This document shows, one piece after another, positions 1,550-48,104 of a stretch of 49,715 nt of DNA. Numbering within the stretch: the stretch's first letter is position 1; each line of letters opens with the position of its first letter. The translations under genes were made by a program, and so were the position numbers. Origin of the DNA: a virus. Lineage: Duplodnaviria > Heunggongvirae > Uroviricota > Caudoviricetes. The notes beneath the pieces are model-generated. The model worked only from the letters and a program-made list of their open reading frames with translations. It was not told the origin of the DNA and did no database searches. The DNA lies in the IMG/VR virus record IMGVR_UViG_2851949629_000006, positions 1 through 49,715 of that record; one strand, given 5' to 3'.

Positions 1550-1579
1550 GTAAGCGTCAACGGAGCACCGTATTGACGC

Positions 1580-2113
1580 TTATTTATTAGTGAGTACTAC
1601 GTTCCATGGCAGGAGTTCGTCAACTCGGTTGGAAGGCCATTCCGGCAGTACGCTCAGGATATGGCGCAGATACGCTTCCGGATCGATACCATTCAACCGG
1701 CAGGTGCCGATCAGCCCGTACAACAGTGCACCACGCTCGCCGCCGTGATCGCTACCGAAGAACACGTAATTTTTCTTTCCGAGACAGACTGCACGAAGCG
1801 CTCTTTCCGCTGTGTTATTGTCCGCCTCCGCCAGACCGTCATCACAGAAGTTGCACAACGCAACCCAGTGCTTCCTGATATACCGGAACGCATCTCTCAG
1901 ACGGCATTTTTTCGATAACGTGTGTTCTTTCTCCTGCATCAGCTTATACAGGGAAGTCAGTAGCGGTTTACTCTGCATTTGCCTGACCGCCAGGCGTTCA
2001 GACACCGGCAACCCGCGTATTTCGTGCTCAATGGCGTACAGTTCGCCGATTAGTTTCAGTGCTTCTTCCGCCGTCGCGCTTTTGGTACTGATATATACAT
2101 CGTGGATTTTGCG
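1580..2113 (-). pseudogene. tnpC: IS66 transposase TnpC, C-terminal fragment of copy 3 (cut by copy 2 insertion)
   Basis: ORF translation aligns with the C-terminal ~140 aa of the full 537-aa TnpC but with substitutions; reading frame runs up to the copy-2 terminus at 2114. Confidence 0.75.
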
Positions 2114-2143
2114 GTAAGCGTTAACGGAGTGCCGTATTGACGC

Positions 2144-3757
2144 TTATTTATTGGTGAGTACTACGTTCCATGGCAGGAGTTCGTCAACTCGGTTGGAAGG
2201 CCATTCCGGCAGTACGCTCAGGATATGGCGCAGATACGCTTCCGGATCGATACCGTTCAGTCGGCAGGTGCTGATCAGCCCGTACAACAGTGCTCCTCGC
2301 TCGCCGCCGTGATCGCTGCCGAAGAACATAAAGTTTTTCTTTCCGAGACAGACTGCACGAAGCGCTCTTTCCGCAGCATTATTATCCGCCTCCGCCAGAC
2401 CGTCATCACTGTAATAACAGAGGGCATCCCACTGATTCAGTACATAGCTGAACGCTTCGCCCAGTCTGGATTTTTTCGACAGCGTACCATTCTTCTCCAC
2501 CATCCATTCATGCAGCGACGTCAGTAACACTTTGCTTCGCTGCTGCCTGACGGCAAGACGCTCTGACTCCGGTAATCCCCGTATTTCATCCTCGATGGCG
2601 TACAGTTCACTGATTCGCTTCAGGGCTTCTTCTGCCGTCGCACTTTTGCTGCTGATGTATACATCGTGGATTTTTCGCCGGGCATGGGCCCAGCACGCAA
2701 CTTCTGTCAGTGCACCACCTTCACGTTCTGCACTGAACAACCTGTCGTAACCTGTGAACGCATCCGCCTGCAGGATACCCCGGAAGGGGCGGAGGTGTTG
2801 CTCCGGGTGTTTCCCCTGCCGGTTCGGCGAGTACGCGAACCAGACCGCTGGAGGAGATGACGAACCCACATTGCGATCATCCCGGACATACGTCCAGATA
2901 CGCCCTGTTTTCGCCTTTTTCTGACCCGGTGCCAGTACCTTTACCGGTGTGTCATCAGTGTGAACCTTGCGGGTGTTCATTACATAACGGTACAGGGCAT
3001 CATTCACCGGTGTCATTAACTGGCAGCACGCGTCAACCCAGTTGGAGAGTAAGGCCCGGCTCAGTTCGACACCCTGGCGGGCAAAGATTTCACTCTGACG
3101 ATACAGTGGCAGATGTTCGCAGTATTTTCCCGTTAACACGCGGGCAAGTAATCCGGGGCCCGCGATACCACGCTCTATCGGGCGGGACGGCGCCGGTGCT
3201 TCAACAATACAGTCACATTTTGTACAGGCTTTTTTTACCCGTTCTGTGCGGATCACTTTCAGGGCACTGCTCACCAGTTCCAGCTGTTCAGCGCTGACTT
3301 CCCCCAGATAATCCAGCTCACCGCCACACTCCGGGCAACAGCTTTCTTCTGGCTCCAGGCGGTGTATTTCACGGGGAAGGTGTGCCGGTAACGGACGACG
3401 ATGGCGCGACTGTCGCAACTGGCGGGGAACCTGAGGATCGTCTTCCCGCCCACTGTAACGATCGCTGTCCTGTTCACGTTGTTTCAGCAGAGCCTCAGCC
3501 AGTTCAACTTCACGACGCAGTTTTTCAGAACGGGTACCGAACAGCATCCGGCGCAGTTTTTCTATCTGAGCCCGCAGATGTTCTATTTCCCGTTCATCTT
3601 CTTCGATCTTTTCTTCGGCACGTGTCAGTGCAGAGCGCAGGAAGGCTTCCGTCTCTTCAACCAGACTCAGTTGCTGGTCTTTCTGACGGAGGGCTTCAGC
3701 CTGCTCAGAGAGCAACCTTTCCAGCTCTGCGATGCGAATGAGGTATTTCTGACTCAT
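2144..3757 (-). CDS. tnpC: IS66 transposase TnpC (copy 2), 537 aa
   Basis: Full-length ORF; translation identical to the copy-1 TnpC; coiled-coil N-terminus, CxxC zinc motif and DDE-type core typical of IS66 TnpC. Confidence 0.85.
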   Translation of the reverse strand: MSQKYLIRIAELERLLSEQAEALRQKDQQLSLVEETEAFLRSALTRAEEKIEEDEREIEHLRAQIEKLRRMLFGTRSEKLRREVELAEALLKQREQDSDRYSGREDDPQVPRQLRQSRHRRPLPAHLPREIHRLEPEESCCPECGGELDYLGEVSAEQLELVSSALKVIRTERVKKACTKCDCIVEAPAPSRPIERGIAGPGLLARVLTGKYCEHLPLYRQSEIFARQGVELSRALLSNWVDACCQLMTPVNDALYRYVMNTRKVHTDDTPVKVLAPGQKKAKTGRIWTYVRDDRNVGSSSPPAVWFAYSPNRQGKHPEQHLRPFRGILQADAFTGYDRLFSAEREGGALTEVACWAHARRKIHDVYISSKSATAEEALKRISELYAIEDEIRGLPESERLAVRQQRSKVLLTSLHEWMVEKNGTLSKKSRLGEAFSYVLNQWDALCYYSDDGLAEADNNAAERALRAVCLGKKNFMFFGSDHGGERGALLYGLISTCRLNGIDPEAYLRHILSVLPEWPSNRVDELLPWNVVLTNK

Positions 3758-3787
3758 GACCGTTTTTATAATGCGGTCAGGAGTTTT

Positions 3788-4070
3788 TTACAACATTGTC
3801 AGTGAGTTACGGCTGGATGTTTTTGGCTGACGCCAGTCCAGCTTATCGAGGAGCATTGCCAGTTGCGAGCGGGTAATGGATACCTTGCCGTCACGTACCG
3901 CAGGCCAGATAAACTGGCCTTCCTCCAGGCGTTTGGTGAACAGGCACAGACCATCAGCATCAGCCCAAAGAATTTTGACGGTGTCACCCCGTCGGCCACG
4001 GAAGATAAACAGGTGACCGGAGAAGGGATTATCATTCAGCACATGTTGTACCTGTTCTCCCAGTCCGTTG
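3788..4070 (-). pseudogene. tnpB: IS66 TnpB (orfB) of copy 2, C-terminal part, cut by copy 1
   Basis: Translation matches residues ~34-116 of intact TnpB (5745-6095); N-terminal remainder is at 6603-6678. Confidence 0.75.
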
Positions 4071-4100
4071 GTAAGCGTTAACGGAGTGCCGTATTGACGC

Positions 4101-5714
4101 TTATTTATTGGTGAGTACTACGTTCCATGGCAGGAGTTCGTCAACTCGGTTGGAAGGCCATTCCGGCAGTACGCTCAGGATATGGCGCAGATACGCTTCC
4201 GGATCGATACCGTTCAGTCGGCAGGTGCTGATCAGCCCGTACAACAGTGCTCCTCGCTCGCCGCCGTGATCGCTGCCGAAGAACATAAAGTTTTTCTTTC
4301 CGAGACAGACTGCACGAAGCGCTCTTTCCGCAGCATTATTATCCGCCTCCGCCAGACCGTCATCACTGTAATAACAGAGGGCATCCCACTGATTCAGTAC
4401 ATAGCTGAACGCTTCGCCCAGTCTGGATTTTTTCGACAGCGTACCATTCTTCTCCACCATCCATTCATGCAGCGACGTCAGTAACACTTTGCTTCGCTGC
4501 TGCCTGACGGCAAGACGCTCTGACTCCGGTAATCCCCGTATTTCATCCTCGATGGCGTACAGTTCACTGATTCGCTTCAGGGCTTCTTCTGCCGTCGCAC
4601 TTTTGCTGCTGATGTATACATCGTGGATTTTTCGCCGGGCATGGGCCCAGCACGCAACTTCTGTCAGTGCACCACCTTCACGTTCTGCACTGAACAACCT
4701 GTCGTAACCTGTGAACGCATCCGCCTGCAGGATACCCCGGAAGGGGCGGAGGTGTTGCTCCGGGTGTTTCCCCTGCCGGTTCGGCGAGTACGCGAACCAG
4801 ACCGCTGGAGGAGATGACGAACCCACATTGCGATCATCCCGGACATACGTCCAGATACGCCCTGTTTTCGCCTTTTTCTGACCCGGTGCCAGTACCTTTA
4901 CCGGTGTGTCATCAGTGTGAACCTTGCGGGTGTTCATTACATAACGGTACAGGGCATCATTCACCGGTGTCATTAACTGGCAGCACGCGTCAACCCAGTT
5001 GGAGAGTAAGGCCCGGCTCAGTTCGACACCCTGGCGGGCAAAGATTTCACTCTGACGATACAGTGGCAGATGTTCGCAGTATTTTCCCGTTAACACGCGG
5101 GCAAGTAATCCGGGGCCCGCGATACCACGCTCTATCGGGCGGGACGGCGCCGGTGCTTCAACAATACAGTCACATTTTGTACAGGCTTTTTTTACCCGTT
5201 CTGTGCGGATCACTTTCAGGGCACTGCTCACCAGTTCCAGCTGTTCAGCGCTGACTTCCCCCAGATAATCCAGCTCACCGCCACACTCCGGGCAACAGCT
5301 TTCTTCTGGCTCCAGGCGGTGTATTTCACGGGGAAGGTGTGCCGGTAACGGACGACGATGGCGCGACTGTCGCAACTGGCGGGGAACCTGAGGATCGTCT
5401 TCCCGCCCACTGTAACGATCGCTGTCCTGTTCACGTTGTTTCAGCAGAGCCTCAGCCAGTTCAACTTCACGACGCAGTTTTTCAGAACGGGTACCGAACA
5501 GCATCCGGCGCAGTTTTTCTATCTGAGCCCGCAGATGTTCTATTTCCCGTTCATCTTCTTCGATCTTTTCTTCGGCACGTGTCAGTGCAGAGCGCAGGAA
5601 GGCTTCCGTCTCTTCAACCAGACTCAGTTGCTGGTCTTTCTGACGGAGGGCTTCAGCCTGCTCAGAGAGCAACCTTTCCAGCTCTGCGATGCGAATGAGG
5701 TATTTCTGACTCAT
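4101..5714 (-). CDS. tnpC: IS66 transposase TnpC (copy 1), 537 aa
   Basis: Intact ORF, identical to 2144-3757. Confidence 0.85.
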   Translation of the reverse strand: MSQKYLIRIAELERLLSEQAEALRQKDQQLSLVEETEAFLRSALTRAEEKIEEDEREIEHLRAQIEKLRRMLFGTRSEKLRREVELAEALLKQREQDSDRYSGREDDPQVPRQLRQSRHRRPLPAHLPREIHRLEPEESCCPECGGELDYLGEVSAEQLELVSSALKVIRTERVKKACTKCDCIVEAPAPSRPIERGIAGPGLLARVLTGKYCEHLPLYRQSEIFARQGVELSRALLSNWVDACCQLMTPVNDALYRYVMNTRKVHTDDTPVKVLAPGQKKAKTGRIWTYVRDDRNVGSSSPPAVWFAYSPNRQGKHPEQHLRPFRGILQADAFTGYDRLFSAEREGGALTEVACWAHARRKIHDVYISSKSATAEEALKRISELYAIEDEIRGLPESERLAVRQQRSKVLLTSLHEWMVEKNGTLSKKSRLGEAFSYVLNQWDALCYYSDDGLAEADNNAAERALRAVCLGKKNFMFFGSDHGGERGALLYGLISTCRLNGIDPEAYLRHILSVLPEWPSNRVDELLPWNVVLTNK

Positions 5715-5744
5715 GACCGTTTTTATAATGCGGTCAGGAGTTTT

Positions 5745-6095
5745 TTACAACATTGTCAGTGAGTTACGGCGGGATGTTTTTGGCTGACGCCAGTCCAGTT
5801 TATCGAGGAGCATTGCCAGTTGCGAGCGGGTAATGGATACCTTGCCGTCACGTACCGCAGGCCAGATAAACTGGCCTTCCTCCAGGCGTTTGGTGAACAG
5901 GCACAGACCATCAGCATCAGCCCAAAGAATTTTGACGGTGTCACCCCGTCGGCCACGGAAGATAAACAGGTGACCGGAGAAGGGATTATCATTCAGCACA
6001 TGTTGTACCTGTTCTCCCAGTCCGTTGAAGGATTTACGCATATCGGTAACGCCGGCAACGAGCCAGATACGGGTACCTGATGGGAGTGAGATCAT
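5745..6095 (-). CDS. tnpB: IS66 accessory protein TnpB (orfB), copy 1
   Basis: 116-aa ORF between tnpA and tnpC, 4-bp overlap with tnpA; typical IS66 orfB size and position. Confidence 0.8.
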   Translation of the reverse strand: MISLPSGTRIWLVAGVTDMRKSFNGLGEQVQHVLNDNPFSGHLFIFRGRRGDTVKILWADADGLCLFTKRLEEGQFIWPAVRDGKVSITRSQLAMLLDKLDWRQPKTSRRNSLTML

Positions 6096-6517
6096 CTTCC
6101 CCTCCCGGTCAGTTCACGGATCAACACTGTGAGCAGCTCTGGCGATGGATTTTCCAGCGTCATGTTACCGTGACGGAATTCCACCTTGCAGGAACTGGCA
6201 CTGACTCTGGTCTGAGTGGAAGTGGATAAAGACGGCGCAATGGCCGCCACAGGTTCTTTCTGCTCATCCGGCGTTATTTCTACAGGTAATAATTCAACGC
6301 CAGTGTCAGAAGAGGTCGTTACCGGAAGACGCCGCGAAACACGCCCTTCGTTCTGCCAGAGCCTGAGCCATTTGAAAATAACATTATCATTGACGCCATT
6401 TTCACGTGCAATCTGTGCAACACAAGCTCCAGGTTGTGATGCCAGTTCCACCATACGAAGTTTGAATTCATTCGAATAGTTTTTACGAGGTTCTTTTCGC
6501 CAGTCCTGTAATTCCAT
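6092..6517 (-). CDS. tnpA: IS66 accessory protein TnpA (orfA), copy 1
   Basis: 141-aa ORF with a helix-turn-helix region (NEFKLRMVELASQPGACVAQIARENGV); first gene of the IS66 operon. Confidence 0.8.
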   Translation of the reverse strand: MELQDWRKEPRKNYSNEFKLRMVELASQPGACVAQIARENGVNDNVIFKWLRLWQNEGRVSRRLPVTTSSDTGVELLPVEITPDEQKEPVAAIAPSLSTSTQTRVSASSCKVEFRHGNMTLENPSPELLTVLIRELTGRGR

Positions 6518-6602
6518 ACTTAGATGTCCGTCTATATCAGATGGGCGTCTAAGTTACCAATTCTCGTCTGATGGCTACATACGGCGGTCAGTTTACGCTT
6601 AC

Positions 6603-6678
6603 GTCCGTTGAAGGATTTACGCATATCGGTAACGCCGGCAACGAGCCAGATACGGGTACCTGATGGGAGTGAGATCAT
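6603..6678 (-). pseudogene. tnpB: IS66 TnpB (orfB) of copy 2, N-terminal 25 codons, continues at 3788-4070
   Basis: Reverse complement encodes MISLPSGTRIWLVAGVTDMRKSFNG, identical to the TnpB N-terminus; interrupted at the GTCCGTTG duplication. Confidence 0.75.
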
Positions 6679-7100
6679 CTTCCCCTCCCGGTCAGTTCAC
6701 GGATCAACACTGTGAGCAGCTCTGGCGATGGATTTTCCAGCGTCATGTTACCGTGACGGAATTCCACCTTGCAGGAACTGGCACTGACTCTGGTCTGAGT
6801 GGAAGTGGATAAAGACGGCGCAATGGCCGCCACAGGTTCTTTCTGCTCATCCGGCGTTATTTCTACAGGTAATAATTCAACGCCAGTGTCAGAAGAGGTC
6901 GTTACCGGAAGACGCCGCGAAACACGCCCTTCGTTCTGCCAGAGCCTGAGCCATTTGAAAATAACATTATCATTGACGCCATTTTCACGTGCAATCTGTG
7001 CAACACAAGCTCCAGGTTGTGATGCCAGTTCCACCATACGAAGTTTGAATTCATTCGAATAGTTTTTACGAGGTTCTTTTCGCCAGTCCTGTAATTCCAT
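6675..7100 (-). CDS. tnpA: IS66 accessory protein TnpA (orfA), copy 2
   Basis: Identical translation to 6092-6517. Confidence 0.8.
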   Translation of the reverse strand: MELQDWRKEPRKNYSNEFKLRMVELASQPGACVAQIARENGVNDNVIFKWLRLWQNEGRVSRRLPVTTSSDTGVELLPVEITPDEQKEPVAAIAPSLSTSTQTRVSASSCKVEFRHGNMTLENPSPELLTVLIRELTGRGR

Positions 7101-7185
7101 ACTTAGATGTCCGTCTATATCAGATGGGCGTCTAAGTTACCAATTCTCGTCTGATGGCTACATACGGCGGTCAGTTTACGCTTAC

Positions 7186-8273
7186 ATTTTGCGCCGCGCA
7201 TGAGCCCAGCATCCTGCTTCCGTCAACGCGCCGCCTTCACGTTCGGCACTGAACAGCCGATCGTAACCTGCGAACGCATCTGCCTGCAGGATACCCCGGA
7301 AGGGACGAAGGTGTTGCTCCGGATGTTTACCCTGATGGTCCGGTGAGTAGGCGAACCAGACCGCCGGAGGTTCTGGCGAACCGGCATTTCGGTCATCCCG
7401 GACATACGTCCAGATATATCCTGTTTTCGCCTTCTTCCTGCCCGGTGCCAGTACTTTTACTGGTGTGTCATCAGTGTGAACCTTGCGGGTGTTCATCACA
7501 TAACTGTACAGGGCATCATTCAGCGGAGTCATTAACTGGCAGCACGCATCAACCCAGTTGGAGAGTAAGGCACGGCTCAGTTCGACACCCTGGCGGGCAA
7601 AGATTTCACTCTGACGATACAGTGGCAGGTGTTCGCAGTATTTTCCCGTTAACACGCGGGCAAGTAACCCCGGGCCCGCGATACCACGCTCTATCGGACG
7701 GGATGGTGCCGGTGCTTCAACGATGCAGTCACATTTTGTACAGGCTTTTTTTACCCGTTCTGTGCGGATCACTTTCAGGGCGCTGCTCACCAGCTCCAGT
7801 TGTTCTGCGCTGACTTCCCCCAGATAATCCAGCTCACCGCCACACTCCGGGCAACAGCTTTCTTCAGGCTCCAGGCGGTATATTTCACGGGGGAGATGTG
7901 CCGGTAACGGACGACGATGGCGCGACTGTCGCAACTGGCGGGGAACCAGCGGGTCATCCTCACGCCCACTGTAACGATCGCTTTCCTGCTCGCGTTGTTT
8001 CAGCAGGACTTCAGCCTGTTCAACCTCACTACGCAGTTTTTCAGAACGGGTTCCGAACAGCATCCGGCGCAGTTTTTCTATCTGAGCCCGCAGATGCTCT
8101 ATTTCTCGCTCATCTTCTTCGATCTTTTCTTCGGCACGTGCCAGTGCAGAGCGCAGGAAGGCCTCCGTCTCTTCAACCAGACTCAGTTGCTGGTCTTTCT
8201 GACGGAGGGCTTCAGCCTGCTCAGAGAGCAGCCTTTCCAGCTCAGCGATGCGAATGAGGTATTTCTGACCCAT
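7186..8273 (-). pseudogene. tnpC: IS66 transposase TnpC of copy 3, N-terminal ~360 codons (cut by copy 2)
   Basis: Translation MGQKYLIRIAELERLL... is a diverged homolog of copy 1/2 TnpC; ORF runs into the copy-2 terminus and stops 4 nt inside it. Confidence 0.75.
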
Positions 8274-8303
8274 GGCCGTTTTTATAATCCGGCCCGGCGT
8301 TTT

Positions 8304-8654
8304 TTACAACATTGTCAGTGCGTTAAGGCGGGATGTTTTTGGCTGACGCCAGTCCAGCTTATCGAGGAGCATTGCCAGTTGCGAGCGGGTAATGGATATC
8401 TTACCGTCATGCACCGCAGGCCAGATAAACTGACCTTCCTCAAGGCGTTTGGTGAACAGGCACAGACCATCAGCATCAGCCCACAGGATTTTAATCGTGT
8501 CTCCCCGTCGGCCACGGAAGATAAACAGGTGACCGGAGAAGGGGTTATCATCCAGCACATGCTGTATCTGCTCCCCCAGACCGTTGAAGGATTTACGCAT
8601 ATCAGTAACGCCGGCAACGAGCCAGATACGGGTACCTGATGGGAGTGAAATCAT
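8304..8654 (-). CDS. tnpB: IS66 accessory protein TnpB (orfB), copy 3
   Basis: 116-aa ORF, diverged homolog of copy-1 TnpB. Confidence 0.8.
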   Translation of the reverse strand: MISLPSGTRIWLVAGVTDMRKSFNGLGEQIQHVLDDNPFSGHLFIFRGRRGDTIKILWADADGLCLFTKRLEEGQFIWPAVHDGKISITRSQLAMLLDKLDWRQPKTSRLNALTML

Positions 8655-9088
8655 CGTCCCCTCCCGGTCAGCTCACGGATCAACACCGTGAGCAGCTCTG
8701 GTGAAGGATTTTCCAGCATCATTTTACCGTAATGGAATTCCACATGGCAGGAAGCTGCACAAGCAACTGATAATGCCTCCGGAGCAGGAGCATCTGTAGC
8801 ACAGCGCGGGGTGTCGATAAGTTCCACTGGAACCAGAGTCGGAGAGGCCGGAAAAGATTGTGATACTGTAGGGCCTACAATAGTTGGAGGCATTCTACGA
8901 GAAATACGTCCTTCTCTTTGCCAGAGGCGTAGCCATTTAAAAATCAGGTTGTTATCAACGCCATGTTCCCGGGCCAGTTGTGCAACATTGGCATTTGGTT
9001 TCGAAGCCAGTTCAACCATATGAAGTTTAAATTCATTAGAAAATATCCGGCGGGTTCCGGAGCGCCAGTCTGTAGGTTTATCCATCAA
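8651..9088 (-). CDS. tnpA: IS66 accessory protein TnpA (orfA), copy 3
   Basis: 145-aa ORF, diverged homolog of copy-1 TnpA (conserved NEFKL.MVELAS and FKWLRLWQ segments). Confidence 0.8.
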   Translation of the reverse strand: MMDKPTDWRSGTRRIFSNEFKLHMVELASKPNANVAQLAREHGVDNNLIFKWLRLWQREGRISRRMPPTIVGPTVSQSFPASPTLVPVELIDTPRCATDAPAPEALSVACAASCHVEFHYGKMMLENPSPELLTVLIRELTGRGR

Positions 9089-9170
9089 TAGAACTCCGTC
9101 TAATTTAGAAGGAGCTCTAATTTAGTCTGCAAGGAGCAGGTGTTACAGACGGCATTGGCTTTACGCTTAC

Positions 9171-10596: not shown

Positions 10597-10845
10597 TCAT
10601 GCAGCGTTGCTCACGGGACGATATACACGTTGCTGAACAGGAGGTTTTTTACCCTGGAACTCTGCCGGGCTTGCTGCCTGACGTTCATCAAGCCAACGCT
10701 CAACTTCGTCACGGTTCCATGCGCAGCGTTTGTCAGTGATATACCAGCGTTTAGGAAATTCCCCTGCGCGCTCCATGCGGTCGATAGTGCTCCATGACAG
10801 TGGCACCACCGCCAGGAGTTCCTTCTTGCCTAATGCACCTTTCAT
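10597..10845 (-). CDS. AlpA-family phage transcriptional regulator / excisionase-like protein
   Basis: 82-aa protein with the AlpA-type motif KELLAVVPLSWSTIDRMERAGEFPK. Confidence 0.65.
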   Translation of the reverse strand: MKGALGKKELLAVVPLSWSTIDRMERAGEFPKRWYITDKRCAWNRDEVERWLDERQAASPAEFQGKKPPVQQRVYRPVSNAA

Positions 10846-10894
10846 AAATACCTCTCTTGGTTGCAGTGCGGCGCGCGTGGCGCCGCGGTGGTGG

Positions 10895-11836: not shown

Positions 11837-12654
11837 ATGTACATATCCTGTTTGCGTGCCCACTCAGGGCGTTTAATGATTTCCACACCGCCCCATTCAT
11901 CATTGATGCGGCATTCGTGATAGGTATTCAGATCCCGGCGGAACAGAGCGTGCCCAGCATCGACATCCTGCGCATCCAGCTCGAACACGCGTACCGGATA
12001 CCGACCACAATCAATGCTTTCGCTCACGGCAAGAAAGAAAAAACCATGCGGCTGACCAGTAACCCTCATTGCGCCTTCGCGGTACATTGCGTCCTGCACG
12101 TGGTAGCGGAATTCCTCGATGTGGCGTGCAAAACGGTCCATATCTGCAACCTTTTTCACGTCGACGATCACGTTGTGCTCGTTCAGCCATTTGTCTGGAC
12201 GAATTCGGCACAACTCACCCGTCTCTTCATCGTTCCAGTACATTGATGCTTCGCAGTAACCAGGTGCTTCCAACATCCAGCGTGCCGCCGGATGAGCCAT
12301 TGCGCTATCACGCATCAGCTCCAGTTTCCGCCACTGCTCGGCATCAAGTACCGCAATCCCCATATCCGCTACATCACGAAGAAATGCTTCTGCGTCAGCT
12401 TTACCTTGTTTCGTTCGACGATCGAACTTTGGTGAAACAATGAAGCGTTTGTCGAATTCTCCAGGTTCCAGAAGCAGACAGTGCAATGCAGTTCCCATAT
12501 CTAGTTCAGACTTTTTCTCTTCGTCTTCTGGTGCTGCCTGAACCCATTTAAGAAGCGCCGGATTCTTGGCAACCATGTCCAGTTGCGACTTACTCACGCC
12601 GTCACCGGCGTGGTAGTCTTCGTTGCTGATGTCGAAATAGATGCCAGTATTCAT
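11833..12654 (-). CDS. PD-(D/E)XK-family exonuclease (RecE/YqaJ-like recombination exonuclease)
   Basis: 273-aa ORF immediately upstream of the annealase gene; classic two-gene phage recombination module; family assignment by context and residue pattern, not a search. Confidence 0.5.
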   Translation of the reverse strand: MNTGIYFDISNEDYHAGDGVSKSQLDMVAKNPALLKWVQAAPEDEEKKSELDMGTALHCLLLEPGEFDKRFIVSPKFDRRTKQGKADAEAFLRDVADMGIAVLDAEQWRKLELMRDSAMAHPAARWMLEAPGYCEASMYWNDEETGELCRIRPDKWLNEHNVIVDVKKVADMDRFARHIEEFRYHVQDAMYREGAMRVTGQPHGFFFLAVSESIDCGRYPVRVFELDAQDVDAGHALFRRDLNTYHECRINDEWGGVEIIKRPEWARKQDMYI

Positions 12655-12857
12655 AACTTAACCTTGTATTCGTTCTGCTTGTTGGAACGGGGTCCATCGT
12701 GGAAATATATTGCGCTCCTGGTTACCTCTACCCATTTGCGACGTTCAAGCTCAGCGATGAACCAAGAAACCTTCGATCTTGAGATACCAAGAATCTTTGC
12801 CATATCTCGGATGCTGTGTTTTCCACCTCGCAGCAATGAGAGGAGTGTTGGTTTCAT
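12651..12857 (-). CDS. small helix-turn-helix DNA-binding protein
   Basis: 68 aa, HTH-like SIRDMAKILGISRSKVSWFIAEL. Confidence 0.5.
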   Translation of the reverse strand: MKPTLLSLLRGGKHSIRDMAKILGISRSKVSWFIAELERRKWVEVTRSAIYFHDGPRSNKQNEYKVKL

Positions 12858-13168
12858 GCCGCGTCCCTCTGTCCATCAAGCTGATCCGCCAGATCCCAGC
12901 GGGCGATAATTGCCATTGCCTCTCGCCGATAGGCATCCATCAGTTCTTCGAACTCAGGGCTGTCTTTAGCAGCCTCCAGTACTTCCTGGCGAACGCCTTT
13001 GCCTGTTACAACGTCGAAAGTTGAGGACAGTTGATGAAGTCGGATGCTCTCAATCAGTTCAACTTGTCGGTCATATAGCTGTTCTGACAGGCGGTAGTCC
13101 TTGTCGAATGCCAGCATGATTTTTTGAAGATTTTTCTGCTGATTAACGTTCATTATCAGCCCTCCCAT
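12854..13168 (-). CDS. hypothetical early protein
   Basis: 104-aa ORF, first gene of the leftward operon downstream of O_L. Confidence 0.4.
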   Translation of the reverse strand: MGGLIMNVNQQKNLQKIMLAFDKDYRLSEQLYDRQVELIESIRLHQLSSTFDVVTGKGVRQEVLEAAKDSPEFEELMDAYRREAMAIIARWDLADQLDGQRDAA

Positions 13169-13314
13169 ATCTCGTTATCGTTGGCCACATCGCGAGCTTC
13201 TTTGCTGACGAAAGCCCACTTAATGCCTTCCTGTAAGGTGCGGAACTTCCAGCTCATGAATCCGCATGCAGTAACGCAGTACCAACCGTTGATGATTTTC
13301 CACTACATAATTTG

Positions 13315-13404
13315 TTACCTCGGTCTGTTACCGTTGAGGTAATGATTATGCGTATCTGGTTTGATGTCAATAGATATGAGTTAAAAAAATTACCCGACAG
13401 GTAA
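13315..13404. promoter_or_regulatory. O_L-like operator cluster: palindromes TTACCGTTGAGGTAA (13328-13342) and TTACCCGACAGGTAA (13390-13404), plus half-site at 13315
   Basis: 15-bp TTACC-N5-GGTAA inverted repeats between the repressor gene 3' end and the leftward early operon. Confidence 0.6.
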
Positions 13405-13461
13405 TTGAGCAGGCAATAAAAAAGCCGCCAGAAGGCAGCTTACTTACTGAAAAATATGATT

Positions 13462-14046
13462 TTATTGTTTGTTTTTTTCGTTCTGGTTGATGACAAATTC
13501 AATGTAACTTTCGATCTTTGCCTTCTCTGTTTCAGGTAACAATGCGTAGCGCGAGCGGTCATAGTTGATAGTCGCGGGGTCGTGCGGGTGAATCAGTAAT
13601 TCATAGCCGTGACGCCCGAATGCGGATGCAACATTCTCCAGGGTGGAAATGGAAACGCTGACCTCATTGTTTAACAGGCGGCTGATTGTCACCTGGGCGA
13701 CGCCGGATGCGCGGTGAAGTTTTCCCTGAGTTGAAAGGTCGCGGCTTTCGCTCATCCAGCGTTCCAGGTTGTGAGCCGCCAGCTGACCAATGTCGCTTGG
13801 GCCGACAGGCTGAAAACCTTCCTGAGAAAGCGAGCGATCGATATCAAGCCAGTTACGGGGTTTATTGGCGGCAGCTTCAATTTTTCGCGCAACCTGGTCG
13901 CCGATAACCTTCTTGCCAAGAGCCCAGCGGTTTACCAGATTTGCCTGAGTTCCAAGTTTTTCTGCCATCCGCGTCTGAACACCATTGAATTCACGGTCGA
14001 TCAAGTCGTTGAGATTTTGCCTGCGGACGTCCTGGATACTTTTCAT
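13462..14046 (-). CDS. prophage repressor with two HTH domains and no S24 peptidase domain
   Basis: Sits between the O_L and O_R palindrome clusters, divergent from the cro-like gene. Two HTH-like segments (TRMAEKLGTQANLVNRW and GVAQVTISRLLNNE). No Ser-Lys autocleavage domain recognisable. Confidence 0.6.
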   Translation of the reverse strand: MKSIQDVRRQNLNDLIDREFNGVQTRMAEKLGTQANLVNRWALGKKVIGDQVARKIEAAANKPRNWLDIDRSLSQEGFQPVGPSDIGQLAAHNLERWMSESRDLSTQGKLHRASGVAQVTISRLLNNEVSVSISTLENVASAFGRHGYELLIHPHDPATINYDRSRYALLPETEKAKIESYIEFVINQNEKNKQ

Positions 14047-14101
14047 TTTCTGGAAAATCGCCTCATATATGAATCAGTAGATGATTCAATTTAAAGCAAT
14101 A

Positions 14102-14164
14102 TTACCCAACAGGTAAATGCACCCCATAGGTAACTATCCTTGATTTTTGTTACCTTATGGGTGA
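14102..14164. promoter_or_regulatory. O_R-like operator cluster: TTACCCAACAGGTAA (14102-14116), half-site CATAGGTAA, TTACCTTATGGGTGA (14150-14164)
   Basis: Palindromes in the 154-bp divergent region between repressor start (14046) and cro-like start (14201). Confidence 0.6.
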
Positions 14165-14200
14165 ATATTTATTATCTGAAATAAATATCAGGCAATAGCT

Positions 14201-14431
14201 ATGAGCGATAACGGACATTTCGATTTCAAAAAGCACTGGCTTGCACTTACTCCGGATGAGCGTGAAGCCTTCGCACAGGAAGCCGGAACGACGAGTCACT
14301 ATATCCAGACTCACTTAACAGGTAAGCGAAAAATGCCAGGTAAGGTATTGATGAATGGGCTTTTTAAAGCCTGTAAATCAAGACAATGGCTGCGCTCAAA
14401 AGCAGAACTGGCATACTTCTTCTACTCATGA
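14201..14431 (+). CDS. Cro-like small regulator
   Basis: 76-aa ORF divergent from the repressor, immediately right of O_R; functional assignment is by position. Confidence 0.5.
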   Translation: MSDNGHFDFKKHWLALTPDEREAFAQEAGTTSHYIQTHLTGKRKMPGKVLMNGLFKACKSRQWLRSKAELAYFFYS

Positions 14432-14581
14432 TATCCAGCCACAACCCTCTGTAGACCGCCATCCGGCGGTCTTTTCATATCTATTCGCACCTCAAAGGTA
14501 ATAAAAAACCAAATCTGGTTGATCTTTTTTTTGTGTCAGCACAAAATGACCGTAATCCCAATACTAATAACAGGGCTTACC

Positions 14582-14782
14582 ATGGAAATCATTACACGTA
14601 TTGATGCCGCAAAGCGCGGACTTAAACGCTATTACACCGGAAAACAATGTAAGCACGGACATGACAGTGAACGCTGGGTTTACAACGGACACTGTGTTGA
14701 GTGCACCATGGAATCAAACCGTCGCATCAGGGCAGAGATTAAGCAGATCATGATTAATTCCTCCCCACAACATTCAAGCTGA
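14582..14782 (+). CDS. small Cys/His-rich (zinc-ribbon-like) protein
   Basis: C-x2-H...C-x2-C pattern (CKHGHDSERWVYNGHCVEC); ATG at 14582 preferred over the longer ORF-track start at 14519. Confidence 0.4.
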   Translation: MEIITRIDAAKRGLKRYYTGKQCKHGHDSERWVYNGHCVECTMESNRRIRAEIKQIMINSSPQHSS

Positions 14783-14797
14783 TAGCGGAGATTAATC

Positions 14798-15607
14798 ATG
14801 AGCAGACATGCAACAGATTGGGCCTGGGAGACAGATCCAGGTAGCTCGTCATTAAAGCTCATACTGCTCTCGATGGCTGACAGAGCCGATGAATATAACC
14901 TCTGCTACCCCAGCATAGAACGCCTCGTTAAAGACACTTGCCTGAATAAAAAAACCGTGCAGGCCGGGCTTATATCGCTCATGAAAATGGGGCTTATTTC
15001 AGATACCGGAGAGAGAAAGGGAGCGACGAAAAGAGTGCGGGTTTTCTCTCTTAATATAACCAAAAACGGGAACATTAAAGGCAACCTAGAAGGGGGTAAT
15101 GACCCCGAAAACGGTAATGTTCCCGAAAACGGGAATATACCCAAAAACGGGATGTTGAATGATCCCAAAAACGGGATCCAGAACCAGTCATATAACCAGT
15201 CATTTAACCAAGAGAGGGAGAGCAGGACAAAAACCGGGGATTCTGTGCCTCATGACCCCGGCGCAAACAACGCCGTGATGAATAACTTTGTTCCTCCTGG
15301 TGGGCCAGGGCAATTAGGCAAATTTGTCATGCATGAACAATGGTAGCCATCAGATGACTTTCTTCGGAAAAGCTCATTGCAGGGAATCTACCTGGACAGT
15401 CTGCCAACGGCACAGGAACTTGCAGAGTTCAGAATTTACTGGATGGCTGAGGGGAAGGCATACCATCAGGCACAGTGGGAGCAGAAGCTGGCAAGGCGCA
15501 TCCAGTTCTGTAGACAGAAATCAGGTGAAGTCAGAAAGAGCCTTGACTGGCATAACACTGACTGGATAGATGAGGTGTGGGATGAAATCAACTCCAGAAC
15601 TTCTTAA
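14798..15607 (+). pseudogene. lambda O-like replication initiator, interrupted by an in-frame amber codon (TAG at 15344-15346); N-terminal part 14798-15346, C-terminal part continues in the same frame to 15607
   Basis: N-terminal HTH and a linker encoded by iterons, as in lambda O. Both halves are in the same reading frame, separated by a single TAG. Confidence 0.55.
15060..15176. repeat. origin-like iterons inside the O-like gene: five copies of CC(C/A)(A/G)AAAACGG(G/T)A
   Basis: Copies at 15060, 15104, 15122, 15140, 15164 (spacing 18/18/24 bp for the last four), followed by the direct repeat AACCAGTCAT x2 at 15182-15204. Confidence 0.65.
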
Positions 15608-16364
15608 TGAGTACGATCGCTTTCGTGGTGGGCATGACCACTCGACGGCGGTTGCTTCTGCTGACGATGAAAGGGCAAAGAAGGAGCAGGTTGCAAGAAT
15701 TTTCAACGAAATGTTTGTCCAGTTACAGGCTGCATTTCCAGGCAGCATCGCTGCTATCAGCGAGCAAGGAAAGCTAAACGAATTTCGAAAACAATGGATG
15801 CTTGCGTTTCTGGAGAATGGGATCACAACAATGGAACAGGTTAACGCTGGTATGCGCCACGCCCGCGCCAGTGAATCTCCGTTCTGGCCGTCGCCAGGGC
15901 AATTTATCAAGTGGTGTAAAGACAGCAAGATGGTTCTTGGCGTCACCATTGACGATGTGATGGCGGAGTTTCACCGGTACAGCAAGGAAAAAAGTTTATA
16001 TCCTGGTGGCCCCGAAAGATTCCCGTGGCGACATCCGGTTATGTACTGGGTCGTATGTGATACCCGCCGTGCAATGTATCAGCGCCAGCTTAGCGAGATT
16101 GAGGTTGAGAAACACGCACGCAGGCTGCTCGATGATTGGGCGAAAAAGGTGGCTTCCGGACAGCAGATACCCGATCCGGTGATCAGCATACAGGCAAAGC
16201 CAGAACCCATGAGTACGCCTCCGGACACAGGGAGAGACGTTTACCACCCGCCAGGGCGAAGTTTCGGGTGCATGCCTAACGCCGCCACCCTGGGGGGAAT
16301 AACACCGGCGCAGTGGCTGATGGAGGAATACAGGCGGGGAAAGGCGGCAGGATTTATCAAGTAA
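15582..16364 (+). CDS. lambda P-like replication protein (helicase loader)
   Basis: Contains ...ENGITTMEQVNAGMRHARASESPFWPSPGQFIKWCKD..., closely matching my recollection of the lambda P segment GITTMEQVNAGMR...PSPGQF. Start ATG at 15582 with RBS GAGGTG; overlaps the end of the O-like gene. Confidence 0.7.
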   Translation: MKSTPELLNEYDRFRGGHDHSTAVASADDERAKKEQVARIFNEMFVQLQAAFPGSIAAISEQGKLNEFRKQWMLAFLENGITTMEQVNAGMRHARASESPFWPSPGQFIKWCKDSKMVLGVTIDDVMAEFHRYSKEKSLYPGGPERFPWRHPVMYWVVCDTRRAMYQRQLSEIEVEKHARRLLDDWAKKVASGQQIPDPVISIQAKPEPMSTPPDTGRDVYHPPGRSFGCMPNAATLGGITPAQWLMEEYRRGKAAGFIK

Positions 16365-16401
16365 TACCAGCGCGATAGCGCATTTTTTTATGTCTCGATG
16401 A

Positions 16402-16478
16402 TTACCTTATGGGTAATAAAATATTCTAAAATCTATTGATTTCGTGTCTTATGTGGTTTTTAATTACCTTAGGGGTAA
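16402..16478. promoter_or_regulatory. promoter region with two operator palindromes (TTACCTTATGGGTAA 16402-16416; TTACCTTAGGGGTAA 16464-16478) and a -35/-10 candidate (TTGATT 16436-16441 / TTTAAT)
   Basis: Same TTACC-N5-GGTAA operator as O_L/O_R, immediately upstream of the ATG at 16482. Confidence 0.5.
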
Positions 16479-16481
16479 ATC

Positions 16482-16829
16482 ATGAGAAAACAGATACAGG
16501 CTCTTGGTCGACTCAAAACAGGCCAGATGAACAAAACAGAATCTGCGTATTGCCAGCACCTTGAGCAGCGTAAACGTGCAGGGGAAATCGCCTGGTATCG
16601 ATTCGAGGGTATCAAGCTGCGGTTAGCTGATAACACGTTTTATACGCCCGATTTCGCTGTGATGCTCGCCACCGGAGAGATGGAACTGCACGAAGTGAAA
16701 GGGGGATTCTGGACCGACGACGCCAGGGTGAAAACCAAAGTAGCCGCAGATCAGTATCCGTTCCGAATCATCGGGGTAACGGTTAAACCAAAGAAAGCTG
16801 GTGGCGGCTGGAACATCGAAGAGTTCTGA
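16482..16829 (+). CDS. hypothetical protein with PD-(D/E)XK-like motif (VRR-NUC-like nuclease candidate)
   Basis: Motif ...YTPDFAV...ELHEVKGG... (PD...E-x-K) in a 115-aa protein. Confidence 0.4.
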   Translation: MRKQIQALGRLKTGQMNKTESAYCQHLEQRKRAGEIAWYRFEGIKLRLADNTFYTPDFAVMLATGEMELHEVKGGFWTDDARVKTKVAADQYPFRIIGVTVKPKKAGGGWNIEEF

Positions 16830-16890
16830 ATCGACGATCTTTTTAGTTATCAATGTTATCAATAAGTTATGTGGATAAGCGAGGGTAAAG

Positions 16891-17403
16891 ATGGAAAGTA
16901 ATATCAAAGGGTTAGTTGCCGCCGGGCATGAGATGGCTTCGGAACTGAAAGCAGAATGTGGTGCTGTTGATATGCGTAGTGTGGCAAAGCTGCTCAGCGA
17001 TTTGGCAACGCAACTGGAAGTGCAACTGGTGCGTGCTAATGCGCTGGCCGAAGACCAGCAGAAAGCGATTGAGTCAATTAAGCAGGCTGATGCAGCTGTT
17101 AAGTTGGCACACGAGAAGTTTTCGGCGCTGGCGGCGGAGAATGCGCGGCTGAATAAATTTATCGTACAGAGTTGCTATGTGTTTAATGGCGAGCAGGATG
17201 AAATATCTGATGCGTATATCTGCGCAACAGACGGAGGTATGCCGCAAATTCCAGCCACCGATGCTTTTCTGGCTGAAGTACGAGCGCAGGGCGTGGAGAT
17301 GGCTATGGAGCATATGCAGTCGAGCGGTTCGTTAACATTTGGAGATTGCTACATATCACTTAACGAGTTCGCCGCCCAGCTTCGTAAAGGAGGCAACCAG
17401 TGA
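16891..17403 (+). CDS. hypothetical coiled-coil protein
   Basis: 170-aa ORF, RBS GAGGG 5 nt upstream of ATG. Confidence 0.45.
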   Translation: MESNIKGLVAAGHEMASELKAECGAVDMRSVAKLLSDLATQLEVQLVRANALAEDQQKAIESIKQADAAVKLAHEKFSALAAENARLNKFIVQSCYVFNGEQDEISDAYICATDGGMPQIPATDAFLAEVRAQGVEMAMEHMQSSGSLTFGDCYISLNEFAAQLRKGGNQ

Positions 17404-18098
17404 GCGAGATTGACTATCAGGTACTGCGTGAAAAGGCAGAAAAAGCAACGTGGGGAGACTGGGACTCATATAAACCACACCGTGGCGCACGTGGTTATGA
17501 GGTCCGACTAAGTAGTCAGGCCATTGCGCAACACGTTCTGAAAAACAACGCTGAATTTATTGCTGCCTTTAATCCAAAGGTTGCTTTGGCACTACTGGAT
17601 GAACGGGAAGCCAAAGACAAAGCATGGTCCGCACAGGACAACCATATCAACCAGCAGGCTGACCGAATTGAATCGCTGGAGAAGAAGAATGGCGAGCTGG
17701 GCAGAGCGCTGGAAGCCGCAGAGAAGCGCATTGCAGAACTGGAAAAAAGCGAAGAGCAACTCATTAATGAGCGTGACCATGCTGAGTCTGCTTTAGATGA
17801 TATGTACTTGGCAGCAACCGGTAACAGGCCGGAGTGGAGTAACTGGTTCGGCTTTTCAGATGCCGTCGATGCCGTGGTTGACAGAATTGCTGATTTAGAA
17901 GCTAAACAGCCATCGCCAGTAGTACTGGAAGGACTGGTTAAAGCAGTGCGCTTCTATGAACAGGTAAAGTGTGAGAATCCGCCAGCTGAAACCGGAGCAT
18001 GGAAGGACGCTGTTGACTGGGTGCTTAAAGAGGCTTGTCAGGCTGTAAATATTGGCACCAAAGGAGACGCAGGAGAGCAAAGCGATGAAAAACCGTAA
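17400..18098 (+). CDS. Ead/Ea22-like protein
   Basis: N-terminus MSEIDYQVLREKAEKATWGDW resembles the conserved start of Ead/Ea22-like proteins of lambdoid prophages. Confidence 0.55.
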   Translation: MSEIDYQVLREKAEKATWGDWDSYKPHRGARGYEVRLSSQAIAQHVLKNNAEFIAAFNPKVALALLDEREAKDKAWSAQDNHINQQADRIESLEKKNGELGRALEAAEKRIAELEKSEEQLINERDHAESALDDMYLAATGNRPEWSNWFGFSDAVDAVVDRIADLEAKQPSPVVLEGLVKAVRFYEQVKCENPPAETGAWKDAVDWVLKEACQAVNIGTKGDAGEQSDEKP

Positions 18099-18283
18099 GG
18101 CAAAGATGCTGATAGCAAAGCCCGGGCAGCGTATCCGTATCTCAAATCGGCTTGTTATTTACTATAGATATCTGGGTTTTAGGGGGTGTTCCTCTATTCG
18201 TTTTTACGGTGTCTGGCGGAGCAGAAGCGCGGCGCAAAACCGCTGGAAAAACCACAGTTATCTGCGCACTAAAGGAGAGTGAG

Positions 18284-18799
18284 ATGGCGTTAACACACCG
18301 CGAACTCTGTCAGATTGCGTACAAGTTCCTTAAGCGCAACGGGTTCAAGGTTTGCTTTCATGACCGCTTTATAGCTGTAACCAGTACCGGAGAACAGCCA
18401 GATGCTATGGGATTCAGAAATTCAGCATCATGCTTGATAGAGGCGAAGTGTTCTCGTGCTGACTTGTTGGCAGATAGAAAAAAGCGTTTCCGTAAAAATC
18501 CGTCTCTTGGAATGGGCGACTGGCGATTCTTTATTAGTGAGCCGGGAATTATTTCAGTTGAGGATTTACCGCCTGGCTGGGGATTGCTTCACGTTGTTAA
18601 CGGAAGAGTACGGAAAGTACATGGGTGGCCCAAGGGTAATTGCTGTTGGGGTAATCCTGACGATAAGCCATTTACTGGGAATAAGCAGGTTGAATGCGAT
18701 TACATGTTATCTGCATTAAGGCGCATGGAGTTGAGAGGGCACCTTAATGAAATATATGACGGCGTAATTGTTAATAAGAAAGAAGGAAACGCGGCATGA
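18284..18799 (+). CDS. hypothetical protein with PD-(D/E)XK-like motif
   Basis: ATG at 18284 with strong RBS AAAGGAGAG; motif GEQPDAMGF...CLIEAKC. ORF-track upstream extension from 18152 rejected. Confidence 0.45.
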   Translation: MALTHRELCQIAYKFLKRNGFKVCFHDRFIAVTSTGEQPDAMGFRNSASCLIEAKCSRADLLADRKKRFRKNPSLGMGDWRFFISEPGIISVEDLPPGWGLLHVVNGRVRKVHGWPKGNCCWGNPDDKPFTGNKQVECDYMLSALRRMELRGHLNEIYDGVIVNKKEGNAA

Positions 18800-47955: not shown

Positions 47956-48104
47956 CATGGCATTTTTCATGGTACTGATTTCCGGTGACGGTATATAAAA
48001 CGGTACGGGAAAAATTGAGATTTGGAAAAATGTTATCACTCAATTGGTTATGGTTATCGTAAATAATTGAGTGGGAATGCTTTGACCCTGCACTATGAAT
48101 GAAC

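What the first reader, a model, noticed from the sequence alone, without database searches (positions are those of the whole stretch)
14798..15607. O-like replication initiator interrupted by a single in-frame amber codon
The N-terminal HTH/iteron-linker part (to 15343) and the C-terminal part (15347-15607) are in the same reading frame, separated only by TAG at 15344-15346. Either the prophage is replication-defective (consistent with the IS66 damage elsewhere), the gene relies on amber suppression, or the two halves work as separate polypeptides.
Basis: seen in the sequence. Interest (0 to 1): 0.55.

Follow-up and report, generated by a model that had tools for sequence, protein, structure and literature searches.

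The report
Amber-truncated prophage replication initiator gene
The replication-initiator gene of a phiV10-like E. coli prophage carries a recent single-base change (CAG to TAG) that cuts the protein off before its DNA-strand-binding end. This is an ordinary loss-of-function mutation in a decaying prophage, not a new mechanism.

Summary
An ORF starts at 14798, hits TAG at 15344-15346 and continues in frame for 86 more codons to TAA at 15605-15607.

The gene is the origin-binding initiator of a phiV10/epsilon15-type (Uetakevirus) prophage. It has an N-terminal HTH_36 domain, five internal iterons (15052-15177) and a C-terminal DnaT-like ssDNA-binding domain. The lambda-P-type helicase-loader gene follows it.

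The TAG replaces CAG (Gln183). That Gln lies in a W-Q-P motif shared with E. coli DnaT, inside the DnaT domain. All 108 IMG/VR relatives and nine E. coli relatives carry CAG, and none of 424 complete-genome records has the TAG 61-mer. A database protein identical except for Gln183 exists. The TAG is therefore a very recent, lineage-restricted C-to-T transition. A separate short-read assembly shows it too, so a sequencing error is unlikely.

Best reading: a nonsense pseudogene that leaves the prophage unable to replicate. The prophage also carries a 7.6-kb IS66 array and a second private CAG-to-TAG mutation in a conserved small early gene (13303-13305).

Host amber suppression could not be tested and seems unlikely. 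A natural gene boundary and programmed readthrough are refuted. Interest is low.

The parts
14798..15346 (+). Truncated ORF: 182 codons plus the amber stop. It encodes the wHTH (HTH_36) origin-binding domain and the iteron-encoded linker.
   Evidence: Pfam HTH_36 matches residues 18-67, E=1.4e-10. The exact 182-aa product is on record on 3 contigs.
15344..15346 (+). Premature amber codon TAG, derived from CAG (Gln183) by a C-to-T change at 15344.
   Evidence: Alignment with four relatives. 108/108 IMG/VR loci have C. The pile-up gives C in 115/115. No exact 61-mer match in 424 E. coli complete-genome records.
15347..15607 (+). Now-untranslated remainder of the gene: 86 codons plus TAA, encoding nearly all of the DnaT-like C-terminal ssDNA-binding domain.
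   Evidence: Pfam DnaT E=1.5e-10. Residues 172-247 of the intact protein align to the DnaT C-terminal domain in PDB 4ou6/6aep/9zbt at E about 1e-19. The only private change here is synonymous (15454).
15323..15523 (+). Span of the DnaT DNA-binding domain (residues 176-242 of the intact protein). The TAG lies 7 codons into it.
   Evidence: Pfam match on the intact N39 homolog, E=1e-14.
15052..15177 (+). Origin iterons inside the initiator gene: five direct repeats spaced 18-24 nt, except for a wider first gap.
   Evidence: the repeat finder families D1-D5.
15582..16364 (+). Lambda-P-type helicase-loader gene. It overlaps the 3' end of the initiator gene by 26 nt.
   Evidence: Pfam Phage_lambda_P E=4e-53. 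The start is placed by homology to RefSeq annotations.
13156..13308 (-). Homolog of phiV10 p39 (phrog_898, 50 aa), with a second private CAG-to-TAG change at codon 2 (13303-13305). It is the first ORF downstream of a PL-like promoter (13370-13342).
   Evidence: The 50-aa ORF is intact in the relatives that cover it; it is M* only in the window, L005 and L121.
1550..9170 (.). 7.6-kb array of IS66-family (ISEc23-like) copies inserted in the prophage Ser/Thr-phosphatase accessory gene. It is flanked by the 8-bp duplication GATAATCA (1542-1549 and 9171-9178).
   Evidence: Pfam IS66 domains. Self-comparison and junction mapping against L009. Junction sequences.
48066..48082 (+). attR core of the prophage (ATTGAGTGGGAATGcTT), followed by the host gene yfgI.
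   Evidence: Pattern search, one mismatch to the published att core (PMC9782041). yfgI/DUF5384 identified.
23624..23700 (-). The only tRNA gene in the window, tRNA-Arg(TCT). It is not a suppressor.
   Evidence: ARAGORN and Rfam.

Best explanation
The gene is the origin-binding replication initiator of a phiV10/epsilon15-type prophage integrated at guaA. In intact relatives it is one 256-295 aa protein. An N-terminal winged-HTH binds the iterons inside its own coding sequence. A repeat-encoded linker follows. A C-terminal domain homologous to the ssDNA-binding, filament-forming C-terminal domain of host DnaT comes last, and the lambda-P-type helicase-loader gene lies immediately downstream.

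In this lineage one C-to-T transition turned Gln183 (CAG) into amber. Translation now ends 7 residues into the DnaT-like domain. The 182-aa product can probably still bind the origin (inferred). It lacks the module that would engage melted origin DNA and hand it to the P-DnaB complex (inferred from DnaT and lambda O biology). The premature stop lies 236 nt upstream of the overlapping P start, so it probably also lowers P expression through loss of translational coupling and Rho polarity (inferred).

The result is a prophage that cannot replicate after induction. It is also 7.6 kb oversized because of an IS66 array, and it carries a second knockout in a conserved early gene. Together these describe a prophage on its way to being cryptic. 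The derived, recent, lineage-restricted nature of the TAG and its position inside the domain are shown. The loss of function and the polarity are inferred.
For: 1. TAG replaces CAG. All four aligned relatives have CAG. So do 108/108 IMG/VR loci and 115/115 sequences in the pile-up. None of 424 E. coli complete-genome records matches the TAG 61-mer exactly. The TAG 27-mer is absent from 241 million metagenome records.

2. The change is recent and single-step. The exact protein with Gln restored, including the lineage-specific E102D, exists in the database (P0029, HAX2424649.1/HCX7790455.1). Only one further private change, a synonymous one, lies downstream of the stop.

3. The stop is inside a domain. 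Pfam DnaT covers residues 176-242 of the intact protein. Residues 172-247 align to E. coli DnaT 85-160 at E about 1e-19, and Gln183 falls in the shared W-Q-P motif. [quoted passage not shown]

4. It is one gene in relatives. About 105 of 107 are continuous ORFs, and phrog_1032 'replication initiation protein' spans residues 1-258.

5. It is not a read error. The same TAG is in the Logan assembly of ERR1937317.

6. There is other lineage-specific damage: the IS66 array and the p39 Q2 amber.

7. Every other phiV10 homolog found in the window is free of internal stops, and all structural genes align full-length apart from the divergent tail fibre. This fits early-stage decay.
Against: No experiment shows that the truncated protein is inactive or that the prophage fails to replicate. 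The host genome could not be inspected for an amber suppressor. Both private nonsense mutations are CAG-to-TAG, which a Gln-inserting suppressor, or basal tRNA-Gln misreading of UAG (PMC5289835), would restore to the exact wild-type protein. The post-stop region shows no decay, which fits recency but would also fit continued use. The role proposed for the DnaT-like domain in a phage initiator is an inference from host DnaT and lambda O, not a tested property.
Confidence: 0.86

Rival explanations
1. The inactivation is not neutral decay. It was selected in the host: knocking out the initiator, together with the first leftward early gene p39, disarms a prophage that induces spontaneously at high rates, so derepression is no longer lethal. 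This is a variant on the cause, not on the nature of the lesion.
For: There are two private nonsense mutations, in the first gene of the PL-side operon and in the PR-side initiator. Against that background, 10 of the 14 other private coding changes are synonymous, so purifying selection acted until recently. Neutral expectation is 3.6% nonsense per substitution. Related Uetakevirus lysogens release about 1e7 PFU/mL spontaneously (PMC9782041).
Against: With 16 private coding substitutions, two or more nonsense changes still arise by chance with a probability of about 0.11 (derived). The function of p39 is unknown (phrog_898). The lysis genes and the antirepressor are intact. No fitness data exist.
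Confidence: 0.25
2. The host carries an amber suppressor, for example a supE-type tRNA-Gln(CUA), so the gene is expressed full-length and the prophage is conditionally functional.
For: Both private stop codons are CAG-to-TAG, so a Gln-inserting suppressor would restore the exact wild-type sequence. From this prophage's own codon content, the chance that both nonsense hits take this path is about 0.05. The region after the stop is undamaged.
Against: CAG-to-TAG is in any case the single commonest nonsense path (23%). There is no suppressor tRNA in the window. Amber suppressors in wild isolates are uncommon (general knowledge). The TAG allele is confined to 3 contigs. The prophage shows independent damage from IS66.
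Confidence: 0.05
3. The TAG is a sequencing or assembly error and the gene is really intact.
For: It is a single-base difference from all relatives.
Against: The identical TAG appears in a separately assembled public run (Logan ERR1937317, L005), which differs from the window at one other base, 12692. The 182-aa product is recorded on 3 contigs. The site is neither a homopolymer nor a CCWGG or GATC methylation motif (read directly from the sequence).
Confidence: 0.02
4. The two halves are naturally separate genes or work as separate polypeptides, or the stop is a programmed readthrough or recoding site.
For: The halves coincide roughly with two Pfam domains.
Against: No relative has a boundary or a stop here. 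The stop lies inside the DnaT domain, not between domains. The first downstream in-frame start is TTG at 15377. It has no clear Shine-Dalgarno sequence and would remove about 20 N-terminal residues of the domain. A programmed stop would be conserved, and this one is private. There is no phage suppressor tRNA.
Confidence: 0.01

Closest known systems
Replication initiator of Escherichia phage phiV10 (PhiV10p43, 'putative primosomal protein') and RefSeq 'DnaT-like ssDNA-binding domain-containing protein' of E. coli Uetakevirus prophages (e.g. WP_213840689.1)
   Same: 93-99% nucleotide identity. Same neighbours: repressor, two small ORFs, initiator, P, DUF1064. Same domains and iterons.
   Different: Those genes are uninterrupted (269-275 aa). 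Here codon 183 is TAG instead of CAG.
Bacteriophage lambda O protein / ori-lambda, and classical lambda O amber mutants
   Same: An origin-binding initiator with iterons inside its own gene, followed by a P-type helicase-loader gene. PHROGs give remote N-terminal similarity to 'replication initiation O-like' families (phrog_391, E=6e-18). An amber mutation in O is the textbook way to make a lambdoid phage conditionally replication-defective (general knowledge).
   Different: No lambda O family was among the Pfam hits at E<=0.01. The C-terminal domain is DnaT-like rather than the lambda O C-terminal P-binding domain. The mutation here is natural and private, not laboratory-made.
E. coli primosomal / replication-restart protein DnaT, C-terminal domain (PDB 4OU6, 4OU7, 6AEP, 9ZBT)
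   Same: Residues 172-247 align to DnaT 85-160 at E about 1e-19, including the W-Q-P motif that holds the mutated Gln. That domain binds and filaments on ssDNA (PMC4132743; PMC13377028).
   Different: The DnaT N-terminal domain and acidic PriB-binding linker are replaced by a wHTH and an iteron-encoded linker. Localisation is therefore by sequence-specific origin binding, not through PriA/PriB.
Defective or cryptic prophages produced by point mutation and IS insertion (prophage decay and domestication)
   Same: A near-complete prophage with a few lineage-specific inactivating lesions: two nonsense codons and an IS array.
   Different: Nothing distinctive. The only mild oddity is that both nonsense changes are CAG-to-TAG.

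Membership tests
DnaT-like / HTH_36 phage replication initiators (phrog_1032; PGAP 'DnaT-like ssDNA-binding domain-containing protein') | N-terminal HTH_36 winged-helix domain | tested here: met
   PF13730 E=1.4e-10 on residues 18-67 of the truncated ORF.
DnaT-like / HTH_36 phage replication initiators (phrog_1032; PGAP 'DnaT-like ssDNA-binding domain-containing protein') | C-terminal DnaT DNA-binding domain within the same polypeptide | tested here: not met
   The domain is encoded (PF17948 E=1.5e-10 on 15347-15604), but the TAG at codon 183 separates it from the N-terminal part. The locus is therefore a disrupted member, a pseudogene, of the family.
DnaT-like / HTH_36 phage replication initiators (phrog_1032; PGAP 'DnaT-like ssDNA-binding domain-containing protein') | Full-length match to the family profile | tested here: met
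   The intact N39 homolog (99.1% identical DNA) matches phrog_1032 over residues 1-258 at E=2.8e-98.
Lambda O-type initiator/origin module (functional class) | Iterons located inside the initiator's own coding sequence | tested here: met
   Five repeats at 15052-15177.
Lambda O-type initiator/origin module (functional class) | Immediately downstream P-type helicase-loader gene | tested here: met
   PF06992 E=4.2e-53 for 15570/15582-16364.
Lambda O-type initiator/origin module (functional class) | Sequence membership in the lambda O protein family | tested here: not met
   Only HTH_36 and DnaT were hit in Pfam at E<=0.01. PHROG 'O-like' hits are remote and limited to the N-terminal part.
Nonsense pseudogene | The stop replaces a sense codon that is conserved in orthologs | tested here: met
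   CAG in all relatives examined.
Nonsense pseudogene | The truncation removes a conserved functional domain | tested here: met
   The stop lies at profile position ~8 of 69 of PF17948 and at the position aligned to DnaT residue 96.
Nonsense pseudogene | No suppression: the product is really truncated in vivo | not testable with these tools
Only the window could be scanned, and it holds tRNA-Arg only.
Programmed stop-codon readthrough / TAG recoding in phages | The in-frame stop is conserved among homologs | tested here: not met
   TAG is private to this lineage.
Programmed stop-codon readthrough / TAG recoding in phages | Phage-encoded suppressor tRNA, or many in-frame TAGs in phage genes | tested here: not met
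   There is one tRNA, Arg-TCT. Only two genes with in-frame TAG were found among the phiV10 homologs.

The most novel reading that the evidence does not exclude
The host lineage is a natural amber suppressor, or tolerates enough tRNA-Gln misreading of UAG-C. Under this reading both private Gln-to-amber changes, in the initiator and in p39, are phenotypically silent or act as a throttle. The prophage would remain conditionally replication-competent, with early-gene output set by suppression efficiency.
Probability: 0.04. Interest if true: 0.5.

Novelty: already known. Interest (0 to 1): 0.13.

Why it matters
Its main value is for annotation. The locus should be labelled as a disrupted (pseudogene) DnaT-like replication initiator, and the prophage as probably defective. 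It should not be annotated as two genes.

It is also a clean natural example of early prophage decay. The sister allele (CAG) differs by a single base and still exists in public data. A matched pair of isolates could therefore be used to measure what loss of the initiator's DnaT-like domain does to induction, host killing and phage yield in Uetakevirus prophages, whose replication module has not been studied experimentally.

The two CAG-to-TAG hits are a small curiosity. They would matter only if the host proved to be a suppressor strain.

Tried and rejected
1. Searching for the source or other carriers. The allele-neutral 35-mer found nothing in the species-representative genomes. The TAG 27-mer found nothing in metagenome contigs. 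The source strain stayed unidentified beyond 'an NCBI contig of 5,138,709 bp'.

The tailspike protein is not on record. The p55 variant turned out not to be lineage-specific. I therefore could not see whether the CAG-allele sisters already carry the p39 amber or the IS66 array.

3. A nine-relative panel was too thin to define private substitutions (210 'private' sites). I replaced it with a panel of about 115 loci.

4. A mechanical scan for other in-frame stop-interrupted ORFs was dominated by non-coding-frame noise. The comparison with phiV10 proteins was the useful test.

5. A Dcm deamination hotspot was rejected. The ancestral contexts inferred from the relatives (GGCAGCC and TGCAGTG) are not CCWGG.

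6. TAG-to-Gln code reassignment, as in some gut phages, was rejected. There is no suppressor tRNA, only two TAGs, and both are private.

7. Laboratory origin (engineered or selected amber mutants, or base editing) was considered. Nothing supports it: the prophage sits in a 5.1-Mb wild-type-sized chromosome with a natural IS array, and the alleles occur in several public assemblies.

Full report
**Observation**

The window sequence, the ORF list and the translation confirm the finding exactly. The ORF starts at ATG 14798, has 182 sense codons, reaches TAG at 15344-15346, continues for 86 more sense codons in the same frame, and ends at TAA 15605-15607.

This is not a chance juxtaposition. An 86-codon stop-free run has a probability of about 0.016. 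The two parts also match two different Pfam domains on their own: HTH_36 for the first part (E=1.4e-10) and the DnaT DNA-binding domain for the second (E=1.5e-10). Five iterons with core CCC(G/A)AAAACGG lie at 15052-15177, inside the first part.

**Context**

The window is a prophage of the phiV10/epsilon15 type (genus Uetakevirus).
- The integrase gene begins at base 1.
- The order of genes is colinear with phiV10 (DQ126339) at 88-99% identity over the homologous regions.
- An att core with one mismatch lies at 48066-48082 (att sequence from PMC9782041). The host gene yfgI follows it.

The replication module reads: repressor (13462-14046, minus strand), two small ORFs, the initiator, an overlapping lambda-P-type helicase-loader gene (15582-16364; Pfam Phage_lambda_P, E=4e-53), and a DUF1064 gene. 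RefSeq and phage records annotate the ortholog as one CDS, named 'DnaT-like ssDNA-binding domain-containing protein', 'putative primosomal protein' or 'replication initiation protein'.

**What the TAG is**

- In an alignment with four relatives the only difference at that codon is C versus T. They have CAG (Gln) and the window has TAG.
- A 61-nt query centred on the codon matches 424 complete-genome E. coli records, none at 100%.
- All 108 IMG/VR contigs retrieved with an allele-neutral pattern have C.
- A pile-up of about 115 relatives gives C in 115/115.
- The TAG 27-mer is absent from the metagenome collection.
- In about 105 of 107 relatives the gene is one continuous ORF of 256-295 aa. 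The length variation comes from the repeat/iteron region.

The stop lies inside a domain, not between domains. Pfam DnaT covers residues 176-242 of the intact protein. Residues 172-247 align to the C-terminal domain of E. coli DnaT in solved structures (4OU6, 6AEP, 9ZBT) at E about 1e-19. Gln183 falls in a W-Q-P motif shared by phage and host proteins.

**Is it real, and how old is it?**

The exact 182-aa product is on record on three contigs. One is a Logan assembly of run ERR1937317 (L005). It is identical to the window over 7,946 nt apart from one base at 12692, and it carries the TAG. A sequencing error is therefore unlikely.

The exact protein with Gln restored still carries the lineage-specific E102D change, and it is in the protein collection on two other E. 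coli contigs (P0029; HAX2424649.1, HCX7790455.1). The ancestor allele therefore still circulates, and the amber is a single, very recent step. Consistent with this, only one further private substitution lies after the stop, and it is synonymous.

**Mechanism (shown and inferred)**

Shown:
- The domain architecture.
- The iterons inside the gene.
- The P gene overlapping the initiator's 3' end by 26 nt.
- Truncation 7 residues into the DnaT-like domain.

Inferred:
- By analogy with lambda O/ori-lambda, the wHTH binds the iterons.
- The DnaT C-terminal domain filaments on ssDNA and marks the helicase-loading site (PMC13377028; PMC4132743). The equivalent domain here probably engages the melted origin and helps deliver P-DnaB.
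- Without it the 182-aa fragment may still occupy the origin, but it cannot initiate replication.
- The stop lies 236 nt upstream of the P start, so it probably also lowers P expression through loss of coupling and Rho polarity.

Basal misreading of UAG by tRNA-Gln occurs in E. coli (PMC5289835) and would regenerate the wild-type protein. It would do so only at low levels, which I regard as unlikely to sustain initiation.

**Other damage in the same prophage**

1. *IS66 array.* A 7.6-kb array of IS66-family copies (1550-9170) is flanked by an 8-bp duplication, GATAATCA. It sits in the accessory Ser/Thr-phosphatase gene next to int. It brings the prophage to about 48 kb, against 39.1 kb for phiV10. 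That would exceed capsid capacity if packaging is headful (inference).

2. *Second amber.* A second private CAG-to-TAG change lies at codon 2 of the homolog of phiV10 p39 (13303-13305, minus strand).
   - The 50-aa protein (phrog_898) has an intact, highly conserved ORF in every relative that covers it.
   - It is the first ORF downstream of a PL-like promoter.
   - None of 550 E. coli records has the TAG 61-mer.
   - The allele is shared by the window, L005 and a third assembly (GCA_017761925.1, L121).

Every other phiV10 homolog found in the window is free of internal stops, and all structural genes align full-length apart from the divergent tail fibre. The tail, lysis and toxin-antitoxin genes match intact annotated relatives.

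**Do two ambers mean suppression?**

Among 17 private substitutions in 9143-20600:
- 10 are synonymous.
- 4 are missense.
- 2 are nonsense.
- 1 is intergenic, a G-C to G-U change in the terminator stem after the repressor gene.

From the prophage's own codon content and a 4:1 transition bias:
- 3.6% of random substitutions are nonsense.
- CAG-to-TAG is the commonest nonsense path, at 23%.
- The chance that both nonsense hits take that path is about 0.05.
- The chance that both are amber is about 0.25.

This is mildly odd but not compelling. I give suppression about 5%. A more plausible refinement, at about 25%, is that the two early-gene knockouts were favoured because they disarm a prophage type that induces spontaneously at high titre (PMC9782041).

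**Comparison with known systems**

By architecture and position the gene works like lambda O, but no lambda O family was among its Pfam hits. It belongs to the HTH_36 + DnaT-like initiators (phrog_1032; PGAP name above), as a disrupted member. Nonsense-inactivated genes in decaying prophages are commonplace, so nothing here is new in kind.

**Verdict**

- The split-gene interpretation is refuted.
- The suppression interpretation is unlikely but untested.
- Interest is low (about 0.13).

Noticed in passing
window 13303-13305 (minus strand), gene 13156-13308: A second private CAG-to-TAG amber lies at codon 2 of the conserved 50-aa early gene (phiV10 p39 homolog, phrog_898). The gene is intact in the relatives that cover it. 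The amber allele is shared with L005 and L121 (GCA_017761925.1).
   Followed up: yes
window 1550-9170: A 7.6-kb array of IS66-family (ISEc23-like) elements has internal tandem duplications: 2113-4070 / 4070-6027 at 99.9% and 6020-6602 / 6603-7185 at 100%. It is inserted in the prophage Ser/Thr-phosphatase gene and flanked by the 8-bp duplication GATAATCA. The tandem copies could be real or an assembly artefact.
   Followed up: partly
window 13437 (terminator 13441-13422, minus strand): A private G-to-A substitution turns a G-C pair into G-U in the stem of the terminator just downstream of the repressor gene and upstream of the PL-like promoter (13370-13342).
   Followed up: partly
window 42190-42374 (minus strand), next to 41486-42142: Rfam finds a C4 antisense RNA (RF01695) and isrK (RF01394) immediately upstream of an AntA/AntB antirepressor gene. 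This is a P1-immI-like antisense control module in a Uetakevirus-type prophage.
   Followed up: no
window 42551-43562: A two-gene module matches an annotated 'hypothetical protein + YafO-family toxin' pair in strain E275a. It is a probable toxin-antitoxin cargo between the antirepressor and the tailspike.
   Followed up: no
window 15052-15177 and relatives L013-L120: The initiator length varies from 256 to 295 aa among relatives, apparently through gain and loss of the 18-nt iteron/6-aa repeat units. The lineage-specific E102D change (15103) lies inside the second iteron.
   Followed up: partly
window 10895-12654 vs L006 29722-31482: phiV10 is annotated with a fused RecE-RecT protein (586 aa). 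Here, and in the E. coli prophages with this module type (e.g. L008-L012), the nuclease (DUF3799) and RecT are separate overlapping genes. The phiV10 fusion may therefore be a frameshift or a sequencing artefact in that record.
   Followed up: no
L121 (GCA_017761925.1 contig DADSRC010000012.1), record position 1, approximately window 14794: In this sister assembly the 102-kb contig ends 4 nt before the initiator's start codon, so its initiator allele could not be seen. The break suggests a repeat or a second related replication module in that genome.
   Followed up: no
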